Below are positions 17,847 to 28,587 of a stretch of DNA of 29,278 nucleotides, in pieces. Both the position numbers and the translations under genes were made by a program. The stretch lies in IMG/VR virus record IMGVR_UViG_2778261180_000001; one strand, given 5' to 3'. This stretch comes from a virus (taxonomy: Duplodnaviria; Heunggongvirae; Uroviricota; Caudoviricetes). The stretch's first letter is position 1; every line of letters begins with the position of its first letter. A model generated the notes under the pieces. It saw only the letters and a list, made by a program, of their open reading frames with translations. It was not told the origin of the DNA and did not search any database.

Positions 17847-18379
17847 TTTTCCTCACATATGTCATATAGTAAAGGATTATATATACCGTTGTTTTGGACG
17901 CTCAAACAGCGAATCAGATCAAATAAAACGCACATTTGTTAACATTTACACAAAGTCTGCGTGGGATATTCTGAAAGAATATCCATAATGTGGAGAGAAT
18001 CTATTGAAGTGCATGGTGCCGGGTGCCTCCCGGTGAATTCAGTACCAGCACCTGAATCCGCGATTATCCCATATACCTACTCGCTGATTGCCCCTCCGCA
18101 CAGGGGGATTCACCATGCCAGTTTCTTTTAACAAACTCCCCGCAAACCAGAGAACAGTCAACCGCCTGAATTGTGAAGTATTTAAAAATTTCTCCCGCTA
18201 ACTGATACCCGGCTAACAGTCTGGCGTTTTCTTTTTCAGCAACGGGAAAGCAACAACCACCACACCCGCCACCAGCACACCGTCAGCCAGCACTGACATT
18301 ATCCGGCTGCTGCAATGCCATTCACAAAAACAGTAAGCAATCACTTTTTACCGTAACAGGTGATAATCCAGATATGTAT

Positions 18380-18843: not shown

Positions 18844-18920
18844 TGGCGCGCTGTACTGGATTCGAACCAGTGACCGATTGCTTAGAAGGCAATTGCTCTG
18901 TCCGGCTGAGCTAACAACGC
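18844..18920 (-). tRNA. tRNA-Arg (anticodon UCU)
   Basis: Manual fold of the reverse complement GCGTTGTTAGCTCAGCCGGACAGAGCAATTGCCTTCTAAGCAATCGGTCACTGGTTCGAATCCAGTACAGCGCGCCA gives a 7-bp acceptor stem, D-stem GCTC/GAGC, anticodon loop CTTCTAA, T-loop TTCGAAT and a CCA end. Confidence 0.8.
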
Positions 18921-19025: not shown

Positions 19026-19101
19026 TGGTGGCCCTTGCTGGATTTGAACCAGCGACCTGGCGATTATGAGTCGCTCGCTCTCACCACTGAGCTAAAGGAC
19101 C
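19026..19101 (-). tRNA. tRNA with CAU anticodon, most likely tRNA-Ile2 (lysidine) of the ileX/ileZ type; tRNA-Met not excluded
   Basis: Reverse complement GGTCCTTTAGCTCAGTGGTGAGAGCGAGCGACTCATAATCGCCAGGTCGCTGGTTCAAATCCAGCAAGGGCCACCA folds as a cloverleaf with anticodon loop CTCATAA. It is very similar to E. coli ileX as I recall it. Confidence 0.8.
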
Positions 19102-22313: not shown

Positions 22314-22469
22314 TTACTCCTCAGGTTCGTAAGCTGTGAAGACAGCGACCTCCGTCTGCCCGGTTCGGATTCGTACCTCGCAGAGGTCTTTCCTCGTTAC
22401 CAGTGCCGTCACTATGACGGTTAAACAGATGACGATCAGGGCGATTAACATCGCCTTTTGCTGCTTCAT
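22314..22469 (-). CDS. hokD: Hok/Gef-family type I toxin (membrane-depolarising peptide)
   Basis: MKQQKAMLIALIVICLTVIVTALVTRKDLCEVRIRTGQTEVAVFTAYEPEE is the classical Hok family sequence; AAGGAG lies 9 nt upstream. An in-frame 19-codon upstream extension (MLDTCRLASYVPKGKEKQA) is present. Confidence 0.85.
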   Translation of the reverse strand: MKQQKAMLIALIVICLTVIVTALVTRKDLCEVRIRTGQTEVAVFTAYEPEE

Positions 22470-23540
22470 AGCCTGCTTCTCCTTGCCTTTCGGCACGTAA
22501 GAGGCTAACCTACATGTGTCTAGCATGAAATTGGCCTCAGATTAATGTTAAGCGTCTTGCAGGACGCGTAATGTTAACTGGGGCTTTTCTCTATCTGCCG
22601 TTGGTGTTCATGCCCGAGGCAGATAGCCTCAAGCACCCGCAGCCATTCTACTTAACTACCGTTACCTCGCCAATGTGAAATCAGTCAGAAAGGCGATCCA
22701 TAAGAACAATAGCAAGACAATAAATCGCCATTACAGCCGTAATAGCCAGCGCACATTTGAGAACCAGCACCACAACCTCCTGTATTGGACGTACACCAGT
22801 CCTGATGAATATGAGGCTGTCTCGTCAGTGATTCAATACAACTATTGGGTATAGTTTCTCTGATTTTTTCTGTGGAAATGGGGCTCAACCACTAGTCATT
22901 TAATACGCAAAGTCCGACACAAGCTAACCTTCTAGTCCGCTTTGAGCGATGAGCGGACATCGACTTTAAAAAACACTAGCGTAAACAGGAAGGCAGTTAT
23001 GATCCAGAATGAATACTCACTACCTCTTTGACTAAAATGATGATAAGTGCTCATTTGATGATAATTAACATGTTTTTTAATAATTAAAGCTAACATAATA
23101 ATTTAACGAATATTCTTTGCTTTCTGAATAATAAACCTAGAGCAAACTAAATGACATCACCAGGACTTAACACCATAGGGTTGGTTTCGAATATTCTTGG
23201 CGTGATATTAATTTTTCTTTTGATTACCACAATCCTCTCATAATGAGGGAGTGTCACTGGCATTGGAAGATAATACGCAATTGAATGATGGAACTACTGT
23301 CAAATAAAAGAACTTAAAAACAAAAAAAGAAGTATATTTACAATATCTTTCGTATACTTAGCGTTAGCATTAATGTTCACGGATTCGTATTGCAATTCTT
23401 ATCAATTCTACCTGACTTGCAAATTTAATTGACTCGTAACATCTGCAACCCCACATTTAACAAAAAGCAGATAGAATAATTGAAGGATATAGTCTAGCTA
23501 AGTTAAATGTGGGTGCGTTTTATTTTACATCAATATATTT

Positions 23541-24563
23541 TTAATTTACAAAACCGAAATCCAGACACTTTTTATAGCTGTTAGGGTGAAGATCTTTAAG
23601 GTCTTTTAAAAAACCTTTATCAAGTGTTAAAATCAAAGTGTCTGGCATATTTAGAGAAATAACTATTAGAAAGTCAAATATGTCATTTTTTCGTAATTTA
23701 CGACCATTTTTATATGCATCCTCAACCTTGCTCATTAGAAAGCTCAACGAATTCTTAGTAAGCCCACGAGCGCCAGAAATCCCCTCCTCCATTTCTTTCA
23801 GGTAGTTATCAACTACTGATTCGTGTTTTTTTTTGCAGGCAAGGGATATTGGATTCTCCATATATTTTTTAAACTTTTTATCAAAATTATCATTTTTTAT
23901 ACTATCATACAGATTTTTGAGTCTGTCTTGGCTTCCGGAAATGTTAACTGTGTCAGTTTTAATCATATGATAGTTGACATGAAAAGCATGTAGGAGTCCG
24001 ATAAGCATGGTTTCAAAAGCTTTCAAAGCTGATTGCTGCTCATTTCCATTAATATATCCATTCCGCAACTCATCTTTAAAGAAGTCTAAAATTAATTCCA
24101 TATTAGATTCAAGTAGAGTCTGCACAAGACTAAGTTGACTTTGATTTTGTACATCGTTATCAAACTTGTATCCATCTTCTCTAATAACCTCAAACAAACC
24201 AGAGACAACCAGTATGAGTATGAACCTATAAAACTCAGCCTCTCTAGATATTTTTAGTGCTCTAACATTATCAATAATATCTTTTACTTCGTCTATTTTG
24301 TCTGAAAAATGCAACCTATAAAGAAATTCATTTGAGATTGGAGTATGACCAATGCTAATTAGTTCAATATTTCCGTTTATGATTGGGCTAATGCATTTTT
24401 TTACAGCCCCTAAGTCATTGCAATATTTAGAGATCACTTCTATGAGTGATGGTGTCGTAATGGATAATTTGAATTGATCTATAGGGGAGTTAATTATTTT
24501 TTGGTTTGTCGACAGACCAACTAGTGAGTAAAGAATATTTGTATCAATTATCATCCTGCTCAT
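23541..24563 (-). CDS. Hypothetical 340-aa protein in an AT-rich island; the N-terminus is faintly PIN-like (candidate novel defence or exclusion gene)
   Basis: ATG at 24563 with an AAGGAG Shine-Dalgarno; begins MSRMIIDTNILYSLVG. The whole 22.9-24.7 kb block is much more AT-rich than its flanks. No confident family assignment. Confidence 0.6.
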   Translation of the reverse strand: MSRMIIDTNILYSLVGLSTNQKIINSPIDQFKLSITTPSLIEVISKYCNDLGAVKKCISPIINGNIELISIGHTPISNEFLYRLHFSDKIDEVKDIIDNVRALKISREAEFYRFILILVVSGLFEVIREDGYKFDNDVQNQSQLSLVQTLLESNMELILDFFKDELRNGYINGNEQQSALKAFETMLIGLLHAFHVNYHMIKTDTVNISGSQDRLKNLYDSIKNDNFDKKFKKYMENPISLACKKKHESVVDNYLKEMEEGISGARGLTKNSLSFLMSKVEDAYKNGRKLRKNDIFDFLIVISLNMPDTLILTLDKGFLKDLKDLHPNSYKKCLDFGFVN

Positions 24564-24762
24564 ATAAATGCTCCTTTTTGAACGGTTGATTATTGTTATA
24601 TCACATATCAATGCGCATTAGCATAGTGATTGTATTGTAACGTCCGCTTCTGGCACAAAGCGGACAACCACGCCAGATCTACCCTGTGCCATGAAAAATG
24701 AGAATGTCAATTCACTCCTGAACTAATGCTTTTTAATCTAGTAACGTCTAAAATACCTAACA

Positions 24763-25164
24763 TTATCCCTGATAAAATGCCAGTATGCGCTGCATAACTT
24801 CACTCATCCGGCACTCGCGACAGATTATGTTTAGGCGACTGTCGTAGCGACGTATTTCTCCATCAGGTAACGACCAGATAAGGTCCGGATCAACCACAGC
24901 TGTTTTCTTCACCTTTGCCCTCGATAGTTTTTTGCGGGCGTTTTGCCAGTCCTTACGCGCCTGTTCAGACGGGAATAACCCGTAGCCGGAGTTGTATACA
25001 TCGCCACTGGCTACCAGCTCTCTGGCAAGAACGCTCATCAGATATCTAGTCGCACCTGTTTTAGCTTCCAGTTGCCGTAACGTCTCACGACCGCTCTGGC
25101 GCACGAGTTCCACCACCTGCCCTTTAATTTTTTCCCGCTCTTCTTGTGTAAAAACTTTTGCCAC
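24763..25164 (-). CDS. Hypothetical 133-aa protein
   Basis: GTG start with AGGGGGA upstream. Lies between the replication gene and the AT-rich island. No family recognised. Confidence 0.4.
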   Translation of the reverse strand: MAKVFTQEEREKIKGQVVELVRQSGRETLRQLEAKTGATRYLMSVLARELVASGDVYNSGYGLFPSEQARKDWQNARKKLSRAKVKKTAVVDPDLIWSLPDGEIRRYDSRLNIICRECRMSEVMQRILAFYQG

Positions 25165-25204: not shown

Positions 25205-25768
25205 TTATCCTCTGAAACCAGGCGGAATTTCTGTATCCGGTTCAGAAATATGATTCATACAACGCTGTACAGGTGAACGTCCCAGGCGGATGACCAGTTC
25301 GTCCCATTTTTCGCGGAGTTTTGACGGGCTCATGATGTTTTTTACCCAGAATTGATCTCGCTGTACCCGACCAAACATTTCGCAAATTTGTCTGTGGCTT
25401 CTGCCATCCAGCATCCGCATTGTGCGCACGTCATTGGCCCAGGCTGTCCAGTTAGGCTCTTTTGGTCGCATGATCTCTCCATCGTCGCTGGCAGCCTGTT
25501 CGTAAAGGTTCACGATCCGCCCCCAAATCCACTGCGCACACGCCAAATCCTCCCTGCTACCCCACTGGCGTTTTTTCGCACTAAACACAACCGCGTCGGG
25601 GTTCCGGGTTAAAAAATCCTGTTCAGCGGTCTGCGGGTCCGGTTGCGAAGCTTCCGGACGAAAAGTGTTTTTATTCTCTGTAGTAATCTCTGTTGTATTC
25701 TCTGTAAGATCATCAGGCCATTTTGACCCGATGACATTGGGTCGTTTTGAACCAATGGAGCGTTTCAT
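25205..25768 (-). CDS. C-terminal part of the replication initiator, carrying a DnaT-like C-terminal domain; in a different frame from the N-terminal part
   Basis: The C-terminus ...RCMNHISEPDTEIPPGFRG matches the E. coli DnaT C-terminus (...VSEPDSQIPPGFRG, recalled). The N-terminus of this ORF (MKRSIGSKRPNVIGSKWP) is a translation of the iteron repeats. Confidence 0.5.
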   Translation of the reverse strand: MKRSIGSKRPNVIGSKWPDDLTENTTEITTENKNTFRPEASQPDPQTAEQDFLTRNPDAVVFSAKKRQWGSREDLACAQWIWGRIVNLYEQAASDDGEIMRPKEPNWTAWANDVRTMRMLDGRSHRQICEMFGRVQRDQFWVKNIMSPSKLREKWDELVIRLGRSPVQRCMNHISEPDTEIPPGFRG

Positions 25769-26147
25769 TTTGACCTGATGGAGCGGCGCATTTTAAACCG
25801 ATGGATTCGCTCAATTTGCCACCATCTAAAAGCTCGCTCCCGTAGTTGATCGTGTAGAAATTGGTCATATCGCGCTTTGATTTATTGAGCTTTTCACAAC
25901 GCAAAAGCCCCAGCGTTTTCAGACTTGCAAACGCGCGCTTTAACGTTGACTCTGACCAGAATGGGAACTGTTCCAGCCATTGTTCCGTTGTGTTGTAAAT
26001 CCAGCGAACACCATCACATTCCATGCCGGAATTGGTATCTCTCAACCAGTAATGCAACTGCTGCAACACAATGGCTTCATTTAAGCCAATCTTCATCGCA
26101 AGCTGTGTGTTTATAACCAGTGGGCGTTCAGCAAAAAGAAGGCTCAT
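25713..26147 (-). CDS. N-terminal part of the replication initiator (replisome-organiser, lambda-O-like N-domain)
   Basis: MSLLFAERPLVINTQLAMKIGLNEAIVLQQLHYWL... resembles phage replisome-organiser N-domains. The ORF runs into the iteron block and stops at 25713. Start is uncertain (ATG 26147 or TTG 26201). Confidence 0.5.
   Translation of the reverse strand: MSLLFAERPLVINTQLAMKIGLNEAIVLQQLHYWLRDTNSGMECDGVRWIYNTTEQWLEQFPFWSESTLKRAFASLKTLGLLRCEKLNKSKRDMTNFYTINYGSELLDGGKLSESIGLKCAAPSGQNETLHWFKTTQCHRVKMA
25727..25830. repeat. Iteron-type direct repeats (putative phage origin) inside the replication initiator gene, followed by an AT-rich stretch
   Basis: Seen directly: four to five copies at roughly 20-bp spacing of an ATTTTGACC-GATGGA-like unit (cattttgacccgatga / ttttgaaccaatgga / ttttgacctgatgga / ttttaaaccgatgga). 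An AT-rich segment with repeated ATTCTCTGT follows at about 25660-25720. Confidence 0.6.
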
Positions 26148-26649
26148 AATTCCATCCAGCTTTTTGTTTGTATTGCTGTCGATACGCAAGTTTGAAAGCA
26201 ATTGCTTTTTCTATAAGTTCGTCAGTTTCACGATCCACTACGGCAGGATCAGCAAAAAGCAGTCCGGACTCCACCACATCGCCATATTCTTTGTTTAATC
26301 CGGCGATCATGTACGTGATGCTTTTTCCGTCACTAATTTCACGATACAACCTGAAATCATTAATCCGGATAGCCTCCATAATTGCAGGCACTAGCGCCGT
26401 GAACTTTTCACGCTTATCCCTAGTGTCGATAGCCTTCCAGCGTTCGAATATCTTCACTCGATTAACGCCAAGCGCTCGCTGATCAACCGCGCCACCTTCA
26501 TCTGTGACACGCTGAACATCGATGTTCGGGCGCTCTTTCAAAGCCCAGAATGCTTCAGTGATTAATATCGTCGCCTGCTCCTGTGTCATTCCTGGTCGAC
26601 ATATCCAGGCATCCAGAGCCTCACGAGCCTGTTCAGGAGTGATTTTCAT
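26128..26649 (-). CDS. Hypothetical 173-aa protein in the cII / YdaT position, downstream of the Cro-like gene
   Basis: ATG at 26649, starting 11 nt after the dicC-like stop. The function is suggested by position only. Confidence 0.4.
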   Translation of the reverse strand: MKITPEQAREALDAWICRPGMTQEQATILITEAFWALKERPNIDVQRVTDEGGAVDQRALGVNRVKIFERWKAIDTRDKREKFTALVPAIMEAIRINDFRLYREISDGKSITYMIAGLNKEYGDVVESGLLFADPAVVDRETDELIEKAIAFKLAYRQQYKQKAGWNYEPSFC

Positions 26650-26860
26650 TGTTCAACCGCCCCGCCCGCTTCGTCTTACGATATTCGTCATAAACCTTGG
26701 GATCATACAGAAGCTCGCCGCCAGATGCCTCCTGTAGACGCATCGCGCGACCTTCAGGAACCAGCTCTTGCCATTGAGAAACAGCAGATGGGTCAACGCC
26801 AGCAGCTTTCGCTACTTTGGCTTTCGTACCGTAAAAATTAATTACGTCTGATTTAAACAT
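26633..26860 (-). CDS. dicC: Cro-like HTH regulator (DicC / YdaS-type)
   Basis: ATG at 26860 with a GGAGG Shine-Dalgarno gives MFKSDVINFYGTKAKVAKAAGVDPSAVSQWQELVPEGRAMRLQEASGGELLYDPKVYDEYRK... Divergently transcribed from the DicA homolog. Confidence 0.7.
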   Translation of the reverse strand: MFKSDVINFYGTKAKVAKAAGVDPSAVSQWQELVPEGRAMRLQEASGGELLYDPKVYDEYRKTKRAGRLNNENHS

Positions 26861-26937
26861 CGCACCTCCAATATTGAGTTTTCTCAATGCTAATCACTCA
26901 AGGAATCTCAAGTCAAGGGTTATTAAGATATCTAAAT
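26861..26937. promoter_or_regulatory. Divergent promoter / operator region between the dicC-like and dicA-like genes
   Basis: 77-bp intergenic region containing the palindrome TTGAGttttCTCAA and a repeated TCAAG motif. Function is inferred from the divergent repressor / Cro-like arrangement. Confidence 0.45.
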
Positions 26938-27345
26938 ATGAACGAGAAAACTTTAGGTCAACGCATTAGAGAAAGACGTAAGCAGGTAGGCTTAAGTCAA
27001 AACGGTTTAAGCAAAGCTGCTGGCGTATCTGGCTCATCAATTTCATTATGGGAAAGTGACCATACAGCCCCGCGCGGGCAAAATTTGCATCGCCTCGCCG
27101 AGGTATTGCAATGTTCACCAACCTGGATACTGTTTGGCGACGAGGACAAAACACCAGCTCCCCCTGTTTCACTCGATAGTGCCTTAGACTTATCGGAAGA
27201 TGAGTTAGAGATGCTGCGTTTGTATCGCGCACTTCCTAAATCAGAGCAACAAGCACAACTCAGCGAACTCCGCGCCCGCGTTGAGAATTTTAATCGCCTG
27301 TTCACCGAGCTATTAGAGGCTCGCAAACGCAACAAGCATCAATAA
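26938..27345 (+). CDS. dicA: DicA-type HTH repressor (Qin immunity repressor)
   Basis: MNEKTLGQRIRERRKQVGLSQ...LAEVLQCSPTWILFGDEDK...QLSELRARVENFNRLFTELLEARKRNK matches E. coli DicA (...LSKVLQCSPTWILFGDEDK...MRARVKNFNKLFEELLKAR) as I recall it; same 135-aa length. Confidence 0.85.
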   Translation: MNEKTLGQRIRERRKQVGLSQNGLSKAAGVSGSSISLWESDHTAPRGQNLHRLAEVLQCSPTWILFGDEDKTPAPPVSLDSALDLSEDELEMLRLYRALPKSEQQAQLSELRARVENFNRLFTELLEARKRNKHQ

Positions 27346-28529: not shown

Positions 28530-28587
28530 TTTCTGGTGACGTTTGGCGGTATCAGTTTTACTCCGTGACTGCTCTGCCGCCGTTTTT
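28530..28587 (+). ncRNA. dicF: DicF small RNA (antisense regulator of ftsZ and other mRNAs)
   Basis: TTTCTGGTGACGTTTGGCGGTATCAGTTTTACTCCGTGACTGCTCTGCCGCC followed by TTTTT is essentially the E. coli DicF sequence as I recall it. It lies between the ydfB/C-like ORF and dicB. Confidence 0.7.

What the first reader, a model, noticed from the sequence alone, without database searches (positions are those of the whole stretch)
25205..26201. Replication initiator split across two reading frames at its internal iteron origin, with a DnaT-like C-terminal domain
The replisome-organiser-like N-domain ORF (ending at 25713) and the DnaT-like C-domain ORF (starting at 25768) overlap within the iteron block and are in different frames; the C-domain frame has a stop just upstream. 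In lambda, the ori lies inside a single O gene. So this looks like one initiator gene interrupted by a frameshift inside the repeats, either a real inactivating mutation (a replication-defective, cryptic prophage) or a repeat-associated sequencing or assembly error. Separately, an O-like N-domain fused to a DnaT-like C-domain would suggest host primosome (PriA/DnaT pathway) recruitment instead of a P-type helicase loader, consistent with no P or DnaC homolog being visible nearby.
Basis: partly seen in the sequence, partly recalled or inferred. Interest (0 to 1): 0.5.

Follow-up and report, generated by a model that had tools for sequence, protein, structure and literature searches.

The report
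Prophage replication initiator broken by iteron deletion
A prophage's lambda-O-like replication initiator gene, which carries its own replication origin inside it, has lost exactly one 23-bp origin repeat; this splits the gene into two frames and most likely stops the prophage replicating, which is an ordinary and apparently recurrent kind of gene decay.

Summary
Two overlapping minus-strand ORFs (26147-25713 and 25768-25205) are the halves of one 321-aa initiator gene. Intact copies in E. coli genomes and in sequenced phages (HannyBb, mEp460_ev081, PhiR42_1) match the window base for base except for 23 bp. That 23 bp is one of five origin iterons and is flanked by a 12-bp direct repeat. The same junction occurs in three further assemblies beyond the window's own, on at least two sequence backgrounds. 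Each background has an otherwise identical intact counterpart. None of 1,630 complete genomes that carry the region has the junction. So the deletion is real, rare and probably recurrent, not an assembly error. The rest of the prophage in the window looks intact.

The "DnaT-like C-domain" reading is only partly right. The folded C-domain is a lambda O C-domain homolog (34% identity, E 1e-27). Only the last 13-16 residues (SEPDTEIPPGFRG) match DnaT. No P, DnaC or DnaB gene lies nearby, and the same is true in the sequenced phages.

In a survey of viral contigs, initiators with this tail are often followed directly by a DnaC homolog and never by lambda P, the same layout as the host dnaT-dnaC operon. 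This suggests a testable role for the tail but does not prove one.

The parts
25205..26147 (-). Whole initiator pseudogene. The intact form is 966 bp and encodes 321 aa; here it is 943 bp because one 23-bp iteron is missing.
   Evidence: intact single CDS in phage mEp460_ev081 and E. coli CFSAN061769; the only difference is a 23-bp gap. PHROG 391 'replication initiation O-like', full-length match, E 1e-92.
25713..26147 (-). N-terminal fragment ORF of 144 aa: native residues 1-127, then 17 out-of-frame residues (ETLHWFKTTQCHRVKMA), then TGA.
   Evidence: The exact protein is on record as WP_122990096.1.
25833..26135 (-). Winged-helix DNA-binding domain (residues about 5-105), left intact by the lesion.
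25714..25806 (-). Origin iteron array with four copies: 25806-25784, 25783-25761, 25760-25738 and 25736-25714. Consensus TCCATCRGKTYAAAAYG. Intact alleles have five copies spaced 23, 23, 23 and 24 bp.
25765..25776 (-). Deletion junction. A single remaining copy of the 12-bp direct repeat AGGTCAAAATGA, which flanks the lost 23 bp (CACGATGGAAGAGGTCAAAATGA) in intact alleles.
   Evidence: alignment; this junction is found in L003-L006, and the intact version in L001 and L002.
25675..25706 (-). A+T-rich 12-bp tandem repeat (ACAGAGAATACA x2.7) next to the iterons. It encodes TENTTEITTEN. It is the presumed DNA-unwinding arm of the origin.
   Evidence: A+T 0.67 here, the highest in the gene. Its role is inferred by analogy with the A+T-rich arm of ori-lambda (PMC4488673).
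25205..25768 (-). C-terminal fragment ORF of 187 aa, equal to residues 135-321 of the intact protein. It starts at an internal Met with only a weak AGG Shine-Dalgarno sequence 5 nt upstream.
25277..25639 (-). Helical C-terminal domain (intact residues about 178-298), homologous to the lambda O C-terminal domain.
25208..25246 (-). DnaT-type C-terminal tail SEPDTEIPPGFRG, predicted to be disordered.
   Evidence: E. coli DnaT ends SEPDSQIPPGFRG; low pLDDT.
26128..26649 (-). Upstream gene, cII-like / YdaT family. It overlaps the initiator start by 20 nt.
24763..25164 (-). Downstream gene, DUF977 / Ren-like. It sits where lambda has P followed by ren.

Best explanation
The region is a single lambdoid replication initiator gene that contains its own origin.

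Architecture:
- N-terminal winged-helix DNA-binding domain.
- A disordered linker whose coding DNA carries the origin: five 23-bp iterons plus an A+T-rich 12-mer repeat.
- A lambda-O-type helical C-domain.
- A short tail identical in type to the C-terminus of host DnaT.

The lesion: in this strain one iteron unit (23 bp) was lost between two 12-bp direct repeats (AGGTCAAAATGA). Replication slippage or microhomology-mediated deletion is the most likely cause. Because 23 is not a multiple of 3, the frame shifts. Translation ends after 127 native and 17 foreign residues. The linker remainder, C-domain and tail are left in a separate frame behind a weak start.

Shown: the deletion, its exact ends, its presence in four assemblies counting the window's own, on different backgrounds, and the domain architecture.

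Inferred:
- The DNA-binding half is uncoupled from the partner-recruiting half, so the prophage cannot fire its own origin. It is replication-defective unless complemented in trans.
- The other genes in the window appear intact.
- The intact module has no P, DnaC or DnaB of its own, so it presumably loads host DnaB through host factors, and the DnaT-type tail is the candidate contact.
For: Deletion:
- Intact 966-bp/321-aa genes at the same position in a phage and in E. coli.
- The window differs from them only by a 23-bp gap. The best genome hits are 1111/1134 = 98.0% identical.
- Five iterons in intact alleles versus four here.
- Relatives at 68-71% identity from E. coli, Citrobacter and Salmonella keep the long linker in frame, so five iterons is the ancestral state.

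Not an artefact:
- The exact truncated protein is on record as WP_122990096.1.
- The junction is present in GCA_012490305.1, GCA_013048205.1, Logan SRR3157078 and the window's own GCA_002230935.1.
- These copies differ in SNPs, repressor allele and an IS insertion.
- Each background has intact counterparts that are identical apart from the 23 bp.

Architecture:
- PHROG 391 match, E 1e-92.
- AF2 model with a disordered 110-177 linker that coincides with the iterons.
- Winged-helix hits to plasmid and primosome initiators.
- C-domain homology to lambda O.

Initiator-only module:
- Phage HannyBb and a full 45-kb prophage carry the intact gene with no P, DnaC or DnaB.
Against: - No read data were available, so the assemblies are the only support for the deletion.
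- Loss of function is inferred, not measured. The two fragments could in principle be co-expressed and associate, and another resident lambdoid prophage could complement in trans.
- The junction is absent from all 1,630 complete E. coli genomes that carry the region, so the allele is rare and short-lived.
- Recurrence could instead reflect transfer of a small recombination patch between prophages.
Confidence: 0.88

Rival explanations
1. Sequencing or assembly artefact: the assembler collapsed one repeat unit, and the real genome has five iterons and an intact gene.
For: The lesion lies in a tandem repeat, the source is a draft assembly, and no complete genome has the junction.
Against: - The identical junction is in four assemblies from different samples, including a Logan assembly of run SRR3157078, listed as a separate source from the NCBI records.
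- The repeats share only 12 identical bases. This is shorter than the k-mers used by short-read assemblers (my own reasoning), so collapse is not expected.
- The flanking sequence differs among the carriers.
Confidence: 0.04
2. Two separate functional genes, or a programmed frameshift that restores the full-length protein.
For: Both ORFs are long. The second starts with ATG and has an AGG 5 nt upstream.
Against: - All close and distant homologs examined are single ORFs, in more than 1,600 genomes and in sequenced phages.
- Moving from the N frame to the C frame needs a +1 shift, and I saw no known +1 site in the 56-nt overlap.
- The split allele is rare, found on 5 contigs against at least 1,000 for one intact sequence.
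Confidence: 0.04
3. The truncated allele is retained because it is useful. The free winged-helix fragment together with four iterons in the chromosome could bind or titrate the initiator of incoming phages of the same origin type, excluding them, while the host avoids lethal prophage replication.
For: - The same deletion appears on at least two backgrounds.
- Other lesions hit the same gene: a 22-bp deletion in L055 and an in-frame 93-bp iteron deletion in P0062.
- Ectopic ori-lambda copies arrest lambda growth by lowering the O protein available to the incoming phage (PMC4488673). Plasmids carrying part of the lambda replication region exclude phages with the lambda-type replication module (PMC3349717).
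Against: - The allele is rare and absent from 1,630 complete genomes, which argues against strong positive selection.
- Recurrence is equally explained by a mutational hotspot.
- There are no expression or exclusion data.
Confidence: 0.1
4. The DnaT-type tail is an oligomerisation element that helps the initiator assemble on the iterons, not a partner-recruitment motif.
For: As summarised in PMC5314882, Szymanski et al. 2013 found that removing the last 18 residues of DnaT changes the trimer to a dimer.
Against: The tail follows the type of helicase-loading partner. Among initiators that share the same C-domain, it never occurs with lambda P and is often next to a DnaC homolog. The two roles are not exclusive.
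Confidence: 0.25

Closest known systems
Bacteriophage lambda O protein and ori-lambda
   Same: - The origin iterons lie inside the initiator gene, in the stretch between an N-terminal iteron-binding domain and a C-terminal partner-binding domain.
- The C-domain is homologous: 34% identity, E 1e-27.
- The gene order is the same: cro, cII-like, initiator, then a ren-like gene.
   Different: - The N-domain does not match Pfam Phage_rep_O.
- There are five 23-bp iterons rather than four 18-19-bp ones.
- There is no P gene.
- The C-terminus is the DnaT-type IPPGFRG tail rather than lambda's ...TDWIYGVDL.
Lambda ori- deletion mutants such as r99
   Same: Small spontaneous deletions in the repeated or A+T-rich part of an origin that lies within the initiator gene (PMC4488673).
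   Different: r99 is a 12-bp deletion that impairs the origin but leaves O protein active (PMC4488673). Here 23 bp are lost, so the protein is broken by a frameshift while four iterons remain.
E. coli DnaT (primosomal protein I) and the dnaT-dnaC operon
   Same: - The C-terminal tail is the same: SEPD(S/T)(Q/E)IPPGFRG at the very end of the protein.
- In many phage modules the initiator's stop codon is followed 3-7 nt later by a DnaC homolog that is 48% identical to E. coli DnaC. In the host, dnaC starts 2 nt after dnaT.
   Different: There is no detectable similarity to the DnaT N-domain or to its three-helix ssDNA-binding domain, by sequence profile or by fold. The RAST label 'Primosomal protein I' on the phage gene is probably explained by the tail alone.
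Winged-helix plasmid and primosome initiators (staphylococcal RepA, DnaD / Gram-positive DnaB family)

Membership tests
Lambda-O-type phage replication initiators (PHROG 391 'replication initiation O-like') | Full-length profile match to the family | tested here: met
   intact homolog residues 17-321 match profile positions 11-298 of 298, E 1e-92.
Lambda-O-type phage replication initiators | C-terminal domain homologous to the lambda O C-domain | tested here: met
   BLASTP E 1e-27, 34% identity over 148 columns.
Lambda-O-type phage replication initiators | Origin iterons and an A+T-rich arm inside the gene, between the two domains | tested here: met
   (iterons and 12-mer repeat). (they coincide with the disordered linker, residues 110-177).
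Lambda-O-type phage replication initiators | N-terminal domain of the Pfam Phage_rep_O type | tested here: not met
   no Pfam hit even at E up to 10. The fold is a DnaD/RepA-like winged helix.
Lambda-O-type phage replication initiators | A cognate P-type helicase loader encoded directly downstream | tested here: not met
   the next gene is DUF977/Ren-like. A close relative with a lambda-like tail does have P.
Lambda-O-type phage replication initiators | An intact, single open reading frame | tested here: not met
   a 23-bp deletion splits the gene in this window.
Lambda-O-type phage replication initiators | The protein binds its own iterons and supports replication | not testable with these tools
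   Needs footprinting or EMSA and a replication assay.
DnaT (primosomal protein I) | N-terminal oligomerisation domain and acidic PriB-binding linker | tested here: not met
   no alignment outside the last 16-21 residues.
DnaT (primosomal protein I) | Three-helix-bundle ssDNA-binding C-terminal domain | tested here: not met
DnaT (primosomal protein I) | Conserved extreme C-terminal tail SEPDxxIPPGFRG | tested here: met
Programmed ribosomal frameshift genes | The two-frame arrangement is conserved among homologs, and a shift site lies in the overlap | tested here: not met
   homologs are single-frame; a +1 shift would be needed and I saw no known site by eye.

The most novel reading that the evidence does not exclude
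The 13-residue tail shared by host DnaT and by many lambdoid initiators may be a portable docking peptide for the DnaC (or DnaC-DnaB) helicase-loading complex.

On this reading, phages with this tail either bring their own DnaC or, like this prophage and phage HannyBb, take over host DnaC-DnaB directly and need no P protein. The host dnaT-dnaC operon would share ancestry, or exchange, with a phage initiator-dnaC module. It would also point to the element by which the PriA-PriB-DnaT preprimosome recruits DnaB/DnaC, a step described as unknown in 2026 (PMC13377028).

Support here is only comparative:
- Of 118 viral-contig proteins ending D..IP.GFRG, 60 have a DnaC homolog starting within 7 nt of the stop, and none has lambda P within the next three genes.
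- After clustering at 80% identity, 14 of 24 clusters containing tail-bearing proteins include DnaC-adjacent members.
- Lambda P follows only initiators with the W-type (lambda-like) tail: 4 of 6 such loci, or 3 of 5 under stricter filters.
Probability: 0.3. Interest if true: 0.65.

Novelty: new member of a known kind. Interest (0 to 1): 0.35.

Why it matters
On its own, this is a defective allele of a common prophage gene. It is useful mainly for annotation: the two "hypothetical proteins" should be merged into one pseudogene. It is also a clean natural example of origin repeats acting as a deletion hotspot inside a coding sequence.

The wider point is the module itself. A very common E. coli prophage and phage family replicates with an O-like initiator and no helicase loader of its own. 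That initiator ends in the same peptide as host DnaT.

If that tail proves to be the contact for DnaC-DnaB, it would explain how these phages do without P. It would also give a concrete, testable candidate for the unresolved step of helicase recruitment in PriA-dependent replication restart.

Tried and rejected
- Pfam on both fragments and on the intact protein gave nothing meaningful. Slx4 and YLR146W-A fell below their cut-offs.
- The NCBIfam scan failed because of a coordinate error and was not repeated.
- A sequence search of the PDB found only the DnaT tail. A C-domain profile against the PDB found nothing.
- A full-text search for the tail motif 'PGFRG' returned only collagen papers.
- Searches for a known function of the DnaT tail, or for phage initiators with it, found only the oligomerisation report. 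The DciA/DnaC domestication paper does not mention dnaT.
- A scan with P0183 gave only 3 loci, so the lambda-like-tail control group stayed small, at 5-6 loci.
- The promoter and terminator scan gave counts no higher than shuffled controls.
- Programmed frameshifting was considered and rejected, as set out under the rival explanations.

Full report
**What is in the window**

The window is the whole 29,278-bp contig NLPT01000047.1 of the E. coli draft assembly GCA_002230935.1. The early-right operon lies on the minus strand. In order it contains:
- a CI-like repressor (26887-27345, plus strand)
- a Cro/DicC-like gene (26633-26887)
- a cII-like/YdaT-family gene (26128-26649)
- the two ORFs of the finding
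- a DUF977/Ren-like gene (24763-25164)

The first ORF of the finding starts at ATG 26147 and stops at 25715-25713 (144 aa). The second runs from ATG 25768 to 25205 (187 aa). They overlap by 56 nt and are in different frames. The second frame has a TAA at 25795-25793, just upstream of its ATG.

**The two ORFs are one gene with a 23-bp deletion**

A megablast search against 5,426 complete E. coli genomes found the region in 2,797 of them. The best hits cover the 1,111-base query with 1,134 bases at 98.0% identity, that is 1111/1134. Three phage records gave the same result: mEp460_ev081, HannyBb and PhiR42_1.

In these records a single 966-bp CDS of 321 aa occupies the position. It is annotated variously as hypothetical protein, replication protein O, O-like initiator, or 'Primosomal protein I'.

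The alignment shows that the only difference in the compared stretch is a clean 23-bp gap in the window. The missing bases are CACGATGGAAGAGGTCAAAATGA. In intact alleles the deleted segment is bounded by two copies of the 12-bp direct repeat AGGTCAAAATGA, and the window keeps one copy at 25776-25765.

**The lost segment is one origin iteron**

Intact alleles carry five repeats of consensus TCCATCRGKTYAAAAYG, spaced 23, 23, 23 and 24 bp. The window carries four, at 25806-25714. TRF detects the 23-bp period. The four copies stand out clearly against shuffled sequence.

Directly downstream lies an A+T-rich 12-bp tandem repeat at 25675-25706. The layout matches ori-lambda, which has four iterons inside the O gene followed by an A+T-rich arm (PMC4488673).

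Because 23 is not a multiple of 3, the loss shifts the frame. Translation from the native start gives residues 1-127 followed by 17 foreign residues. Residues 135-321 are left in the other frame.

Relatives at 68-71% identity from E. coli, Citrobacter and Salmonella keep the full-length linker in frame. The five-iteron state is therefore ancestral, and the window carries a deletion rather than the others carrying a duplication.

**Real mutation or artefact**

A 60-base probe was designed so that only the deleted junction could be covered to more than 80%. It matched 1,630 complete genomes, and none of them had the junction.

The exact 144-aa truncated protein is nevertheless on record as WP_122990096.1. 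The contigs that encode it come from three further samples besides the window's own: GCA_012490305.1, GCA_013048205.1 and a Logan assembly of run SRR3157078. All four carry the identical junction.

The carriers are not copies of one sequence:
- L003 has SNPs in the upstream gene, a divergent DUF977 gene and an IS element.
- L005 has a different repressor allele.
- L006 has its own SNPs.

These differences are shown. Both the window-type and the L003-type background have intact counterparts that are identical apart from the 23 bp.

A 12-bp repeat is shorter than typical assembler k-mers (my own reasoning), so repeat collapse is not expected. I conclude that the deletion is real, rare and recent, and has most likely arisen more than once at a slippage hotspot. 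Transfer of a short recombination patch between prophages cannot be excluded.

Other independent lesions hit the same gene:
- a 22-bp deletion just upstream of the iterons in an IMG/VR contig (L055)
- a 290-aa allele with an in-frame 93-bp deletion running from iteron 1 to iteron 5 (P0062)

**Architecture of the intact protein**

PHROGs places the protein full length in family 391, 'replication initiation O-like' (E 1e-92). Pfam has no model for either half.

An AlphaFold2 model gives four parts:
- a winged-helix domain at residues 5-105
- a disordered stretch at residues 110-177, which is exactly the part encoded by the iterons and the 12-mer repeat
- a helical domain at residues 178-298
- a disordered tail

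**How DnaT-like it is**

Similarity to DnaT is confined to the extreme C-terminus. The window protein ends SEPDTEIPPGFRG and E. coli DnaT ends SEPDSQIPPGFRG. A profile of the C-domain aligned to DnaT covers only DnaT residues 164-179. No DnaT chain appears among the 60 listed fold matches.

**Helicase loading**

The window contains no P, DnaC or DnaB homolog near the initiator. The same is true of phage HannyBb, which was isolated and sequenced as a phage. It is also true of a full 45-kb prophage at the rspB-ydfJ locus that is 99.9% identical to the window's late region. This initiator-only arrangement therefore occurs in a phage recovered as a virion, which suggests it is functional.

A close relative (71% identical) ends in a lambda-like tail (...DWNSADGWEDVL) and is followed at once by a lambda P homolog.

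I then surveyed viral contigs.
- Among 118 proteins ending D..IP.GFRG, 60 are followed within 3-7 nt by an AAA+ protein of the IstB/DnaC family. One of these is 48% identical to E. coli DnaC over its full length.
- Another 38 are followed by DUF977.
- None has lambda P within the next three genes.
- Among proteins with the O-type C-domain, lambda P follows only those with W-type (lambda-like) tails: 4 of 6 loci.
- After clustering at 80% identity, 14 of 24 clusters containing tail-bearing proteins have DnaC-adjacent members, and P is confined to W-type tails.

In E. coli itself, dnaC starts 2 nt after the dnaT stop codon. The host operon therefore has the same 'tail, stop codon, DnaC' layout.

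Caveats:
- Many loci are near-duplicates.
- The control group is small.
- The FRG codons (TTC AGR GGN) also act as the Shine-Dalgarno sequence for the downstream gene. A few tails do use CGN arginine codons, and the conservation extends 13 residues, so protein-level constraint is also present.
- The only published role I found for the DnaT tail is in DnaT oligomerisation (Szymanski et al. 2013, as summarised in PMC5314882).

The idea that the tail docks DnaC-DnaB is therefore a hypothesis raised by these data, not a result.

**Consequences for this prophage**

Every late gene I compared is full length and 100% identical to the ECC-1470 prophage, which has the intact initiator. These include the terminase, portal, protease-capsid fusion and tape-measure genes. 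'Cryptic' is therefore too strong.

The evidence supports a recently acquired, probably replication-disabling lesion in an otherwise intact-looking lambdoid prophage.

The winged-helix fragment and four iterons remain. By analogy with lambda, where ectopic ori copies or replication-region plasmids exclude phages with the lambda-type replication module (PMC4488673, PMC3349717), they could interfere with related phages. This is speculation.

**Verdict**

The frameshift interpretation is supported and now defined precisely. An assembly error is unlikely. The DnaT-domain claim is reduced to a short tail. The main finding is ordinary prophage decay, a new defective member of a known family. The tail-DnaC association is the one lead worth following.

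Noticed in passing
L055 3501-4441 (IMGVR_UViG_2778261316_000001): The same initiator gene carries a different frameshifting lesion. A 22-bp deletion (CACGATCAACTATGGGAGCGAG) lies just upstream of the iterons, and all five iterons are retained.
   Followed up: partly
P0062 and similar 290-aa proteins (P0059, P0061, P0065, P0066): These alleles have an in-frame 93-bp (31-aa) deletion running from iteron 1 to iteron 5. One iteron and an open frame remain, so they are probably origin-defective but protein-intact.
   Followed up: partly
P0047 (448 aa, 56 contigs) and P0046, P0048: In these proteins the upstream YdaT/cII-like gene is fused in frame to the initiator (the Pfam YdaT domain plus 98% identity to the whole initiator). 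This is presumably a frameshift in the 20-nt gene overlap. One example is on a 4.86-Mb contig.
   Followed up: no
P0033 (243 aa, 11 contigs): A non-partial 243-aa version of the initiator is cut off within the C-domain. This is another apparent truncation allele.
   Followed up: no
window 25208-25216 and the corresponding position in L093-L212; L296 1977-1990: The last three codons of the tail (TTC AGR GGN) form a Shine-Dalgarno-like AGGGGG/AGAGGA sequence for the next gene, which starts 2-7 nt after the stop when that gene is dnaC-like. Arg is almost always AGA/AGG, with a few CGN exceptions.
   Followed up: partly
window 28531-28582 (+): A DicF antisense sRNA gives a full-length Rfam match at 72.5 bits. 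It lies next to dicB and ydfD, as in the Qin prophage.
   Followed up: no
window 22464-22638 (-) and 17957-18147 (-): A sok antitoxin RNA of the hok/sok (hokD) locus scores 115 bits. A full-length STnc100 sRNA match scores 114 bits.
   Followed up: no
window 18844-18920 and 19026-19101 (-): Two phage tRNA genes lie downstream of the Q antiterminator. One is tRNA-Arg(UCU), which reads AGA, the rare Arg codon used in the tail. The other has a CAU anticodon; ARAGORN calls it Met, and RefSeq annotates it as Ile in a near-identical prophage.
   Followed up: no
window 23541-24611 (-): A 340-356-aa ORF lies between the DUF977 gene and hokD. It has no Pfam or PHROG match and sits in a moron-like position.
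   Followed up: no
L213-L292 and L042-L054: A second large group of prophages carries the same C-domain and an IPAGFRG tail on a different N-domain. The next genes are a 162-aa PerC-like protein and then a Dam methylase. Again there is no P or DnaC.
   Followed up: partly
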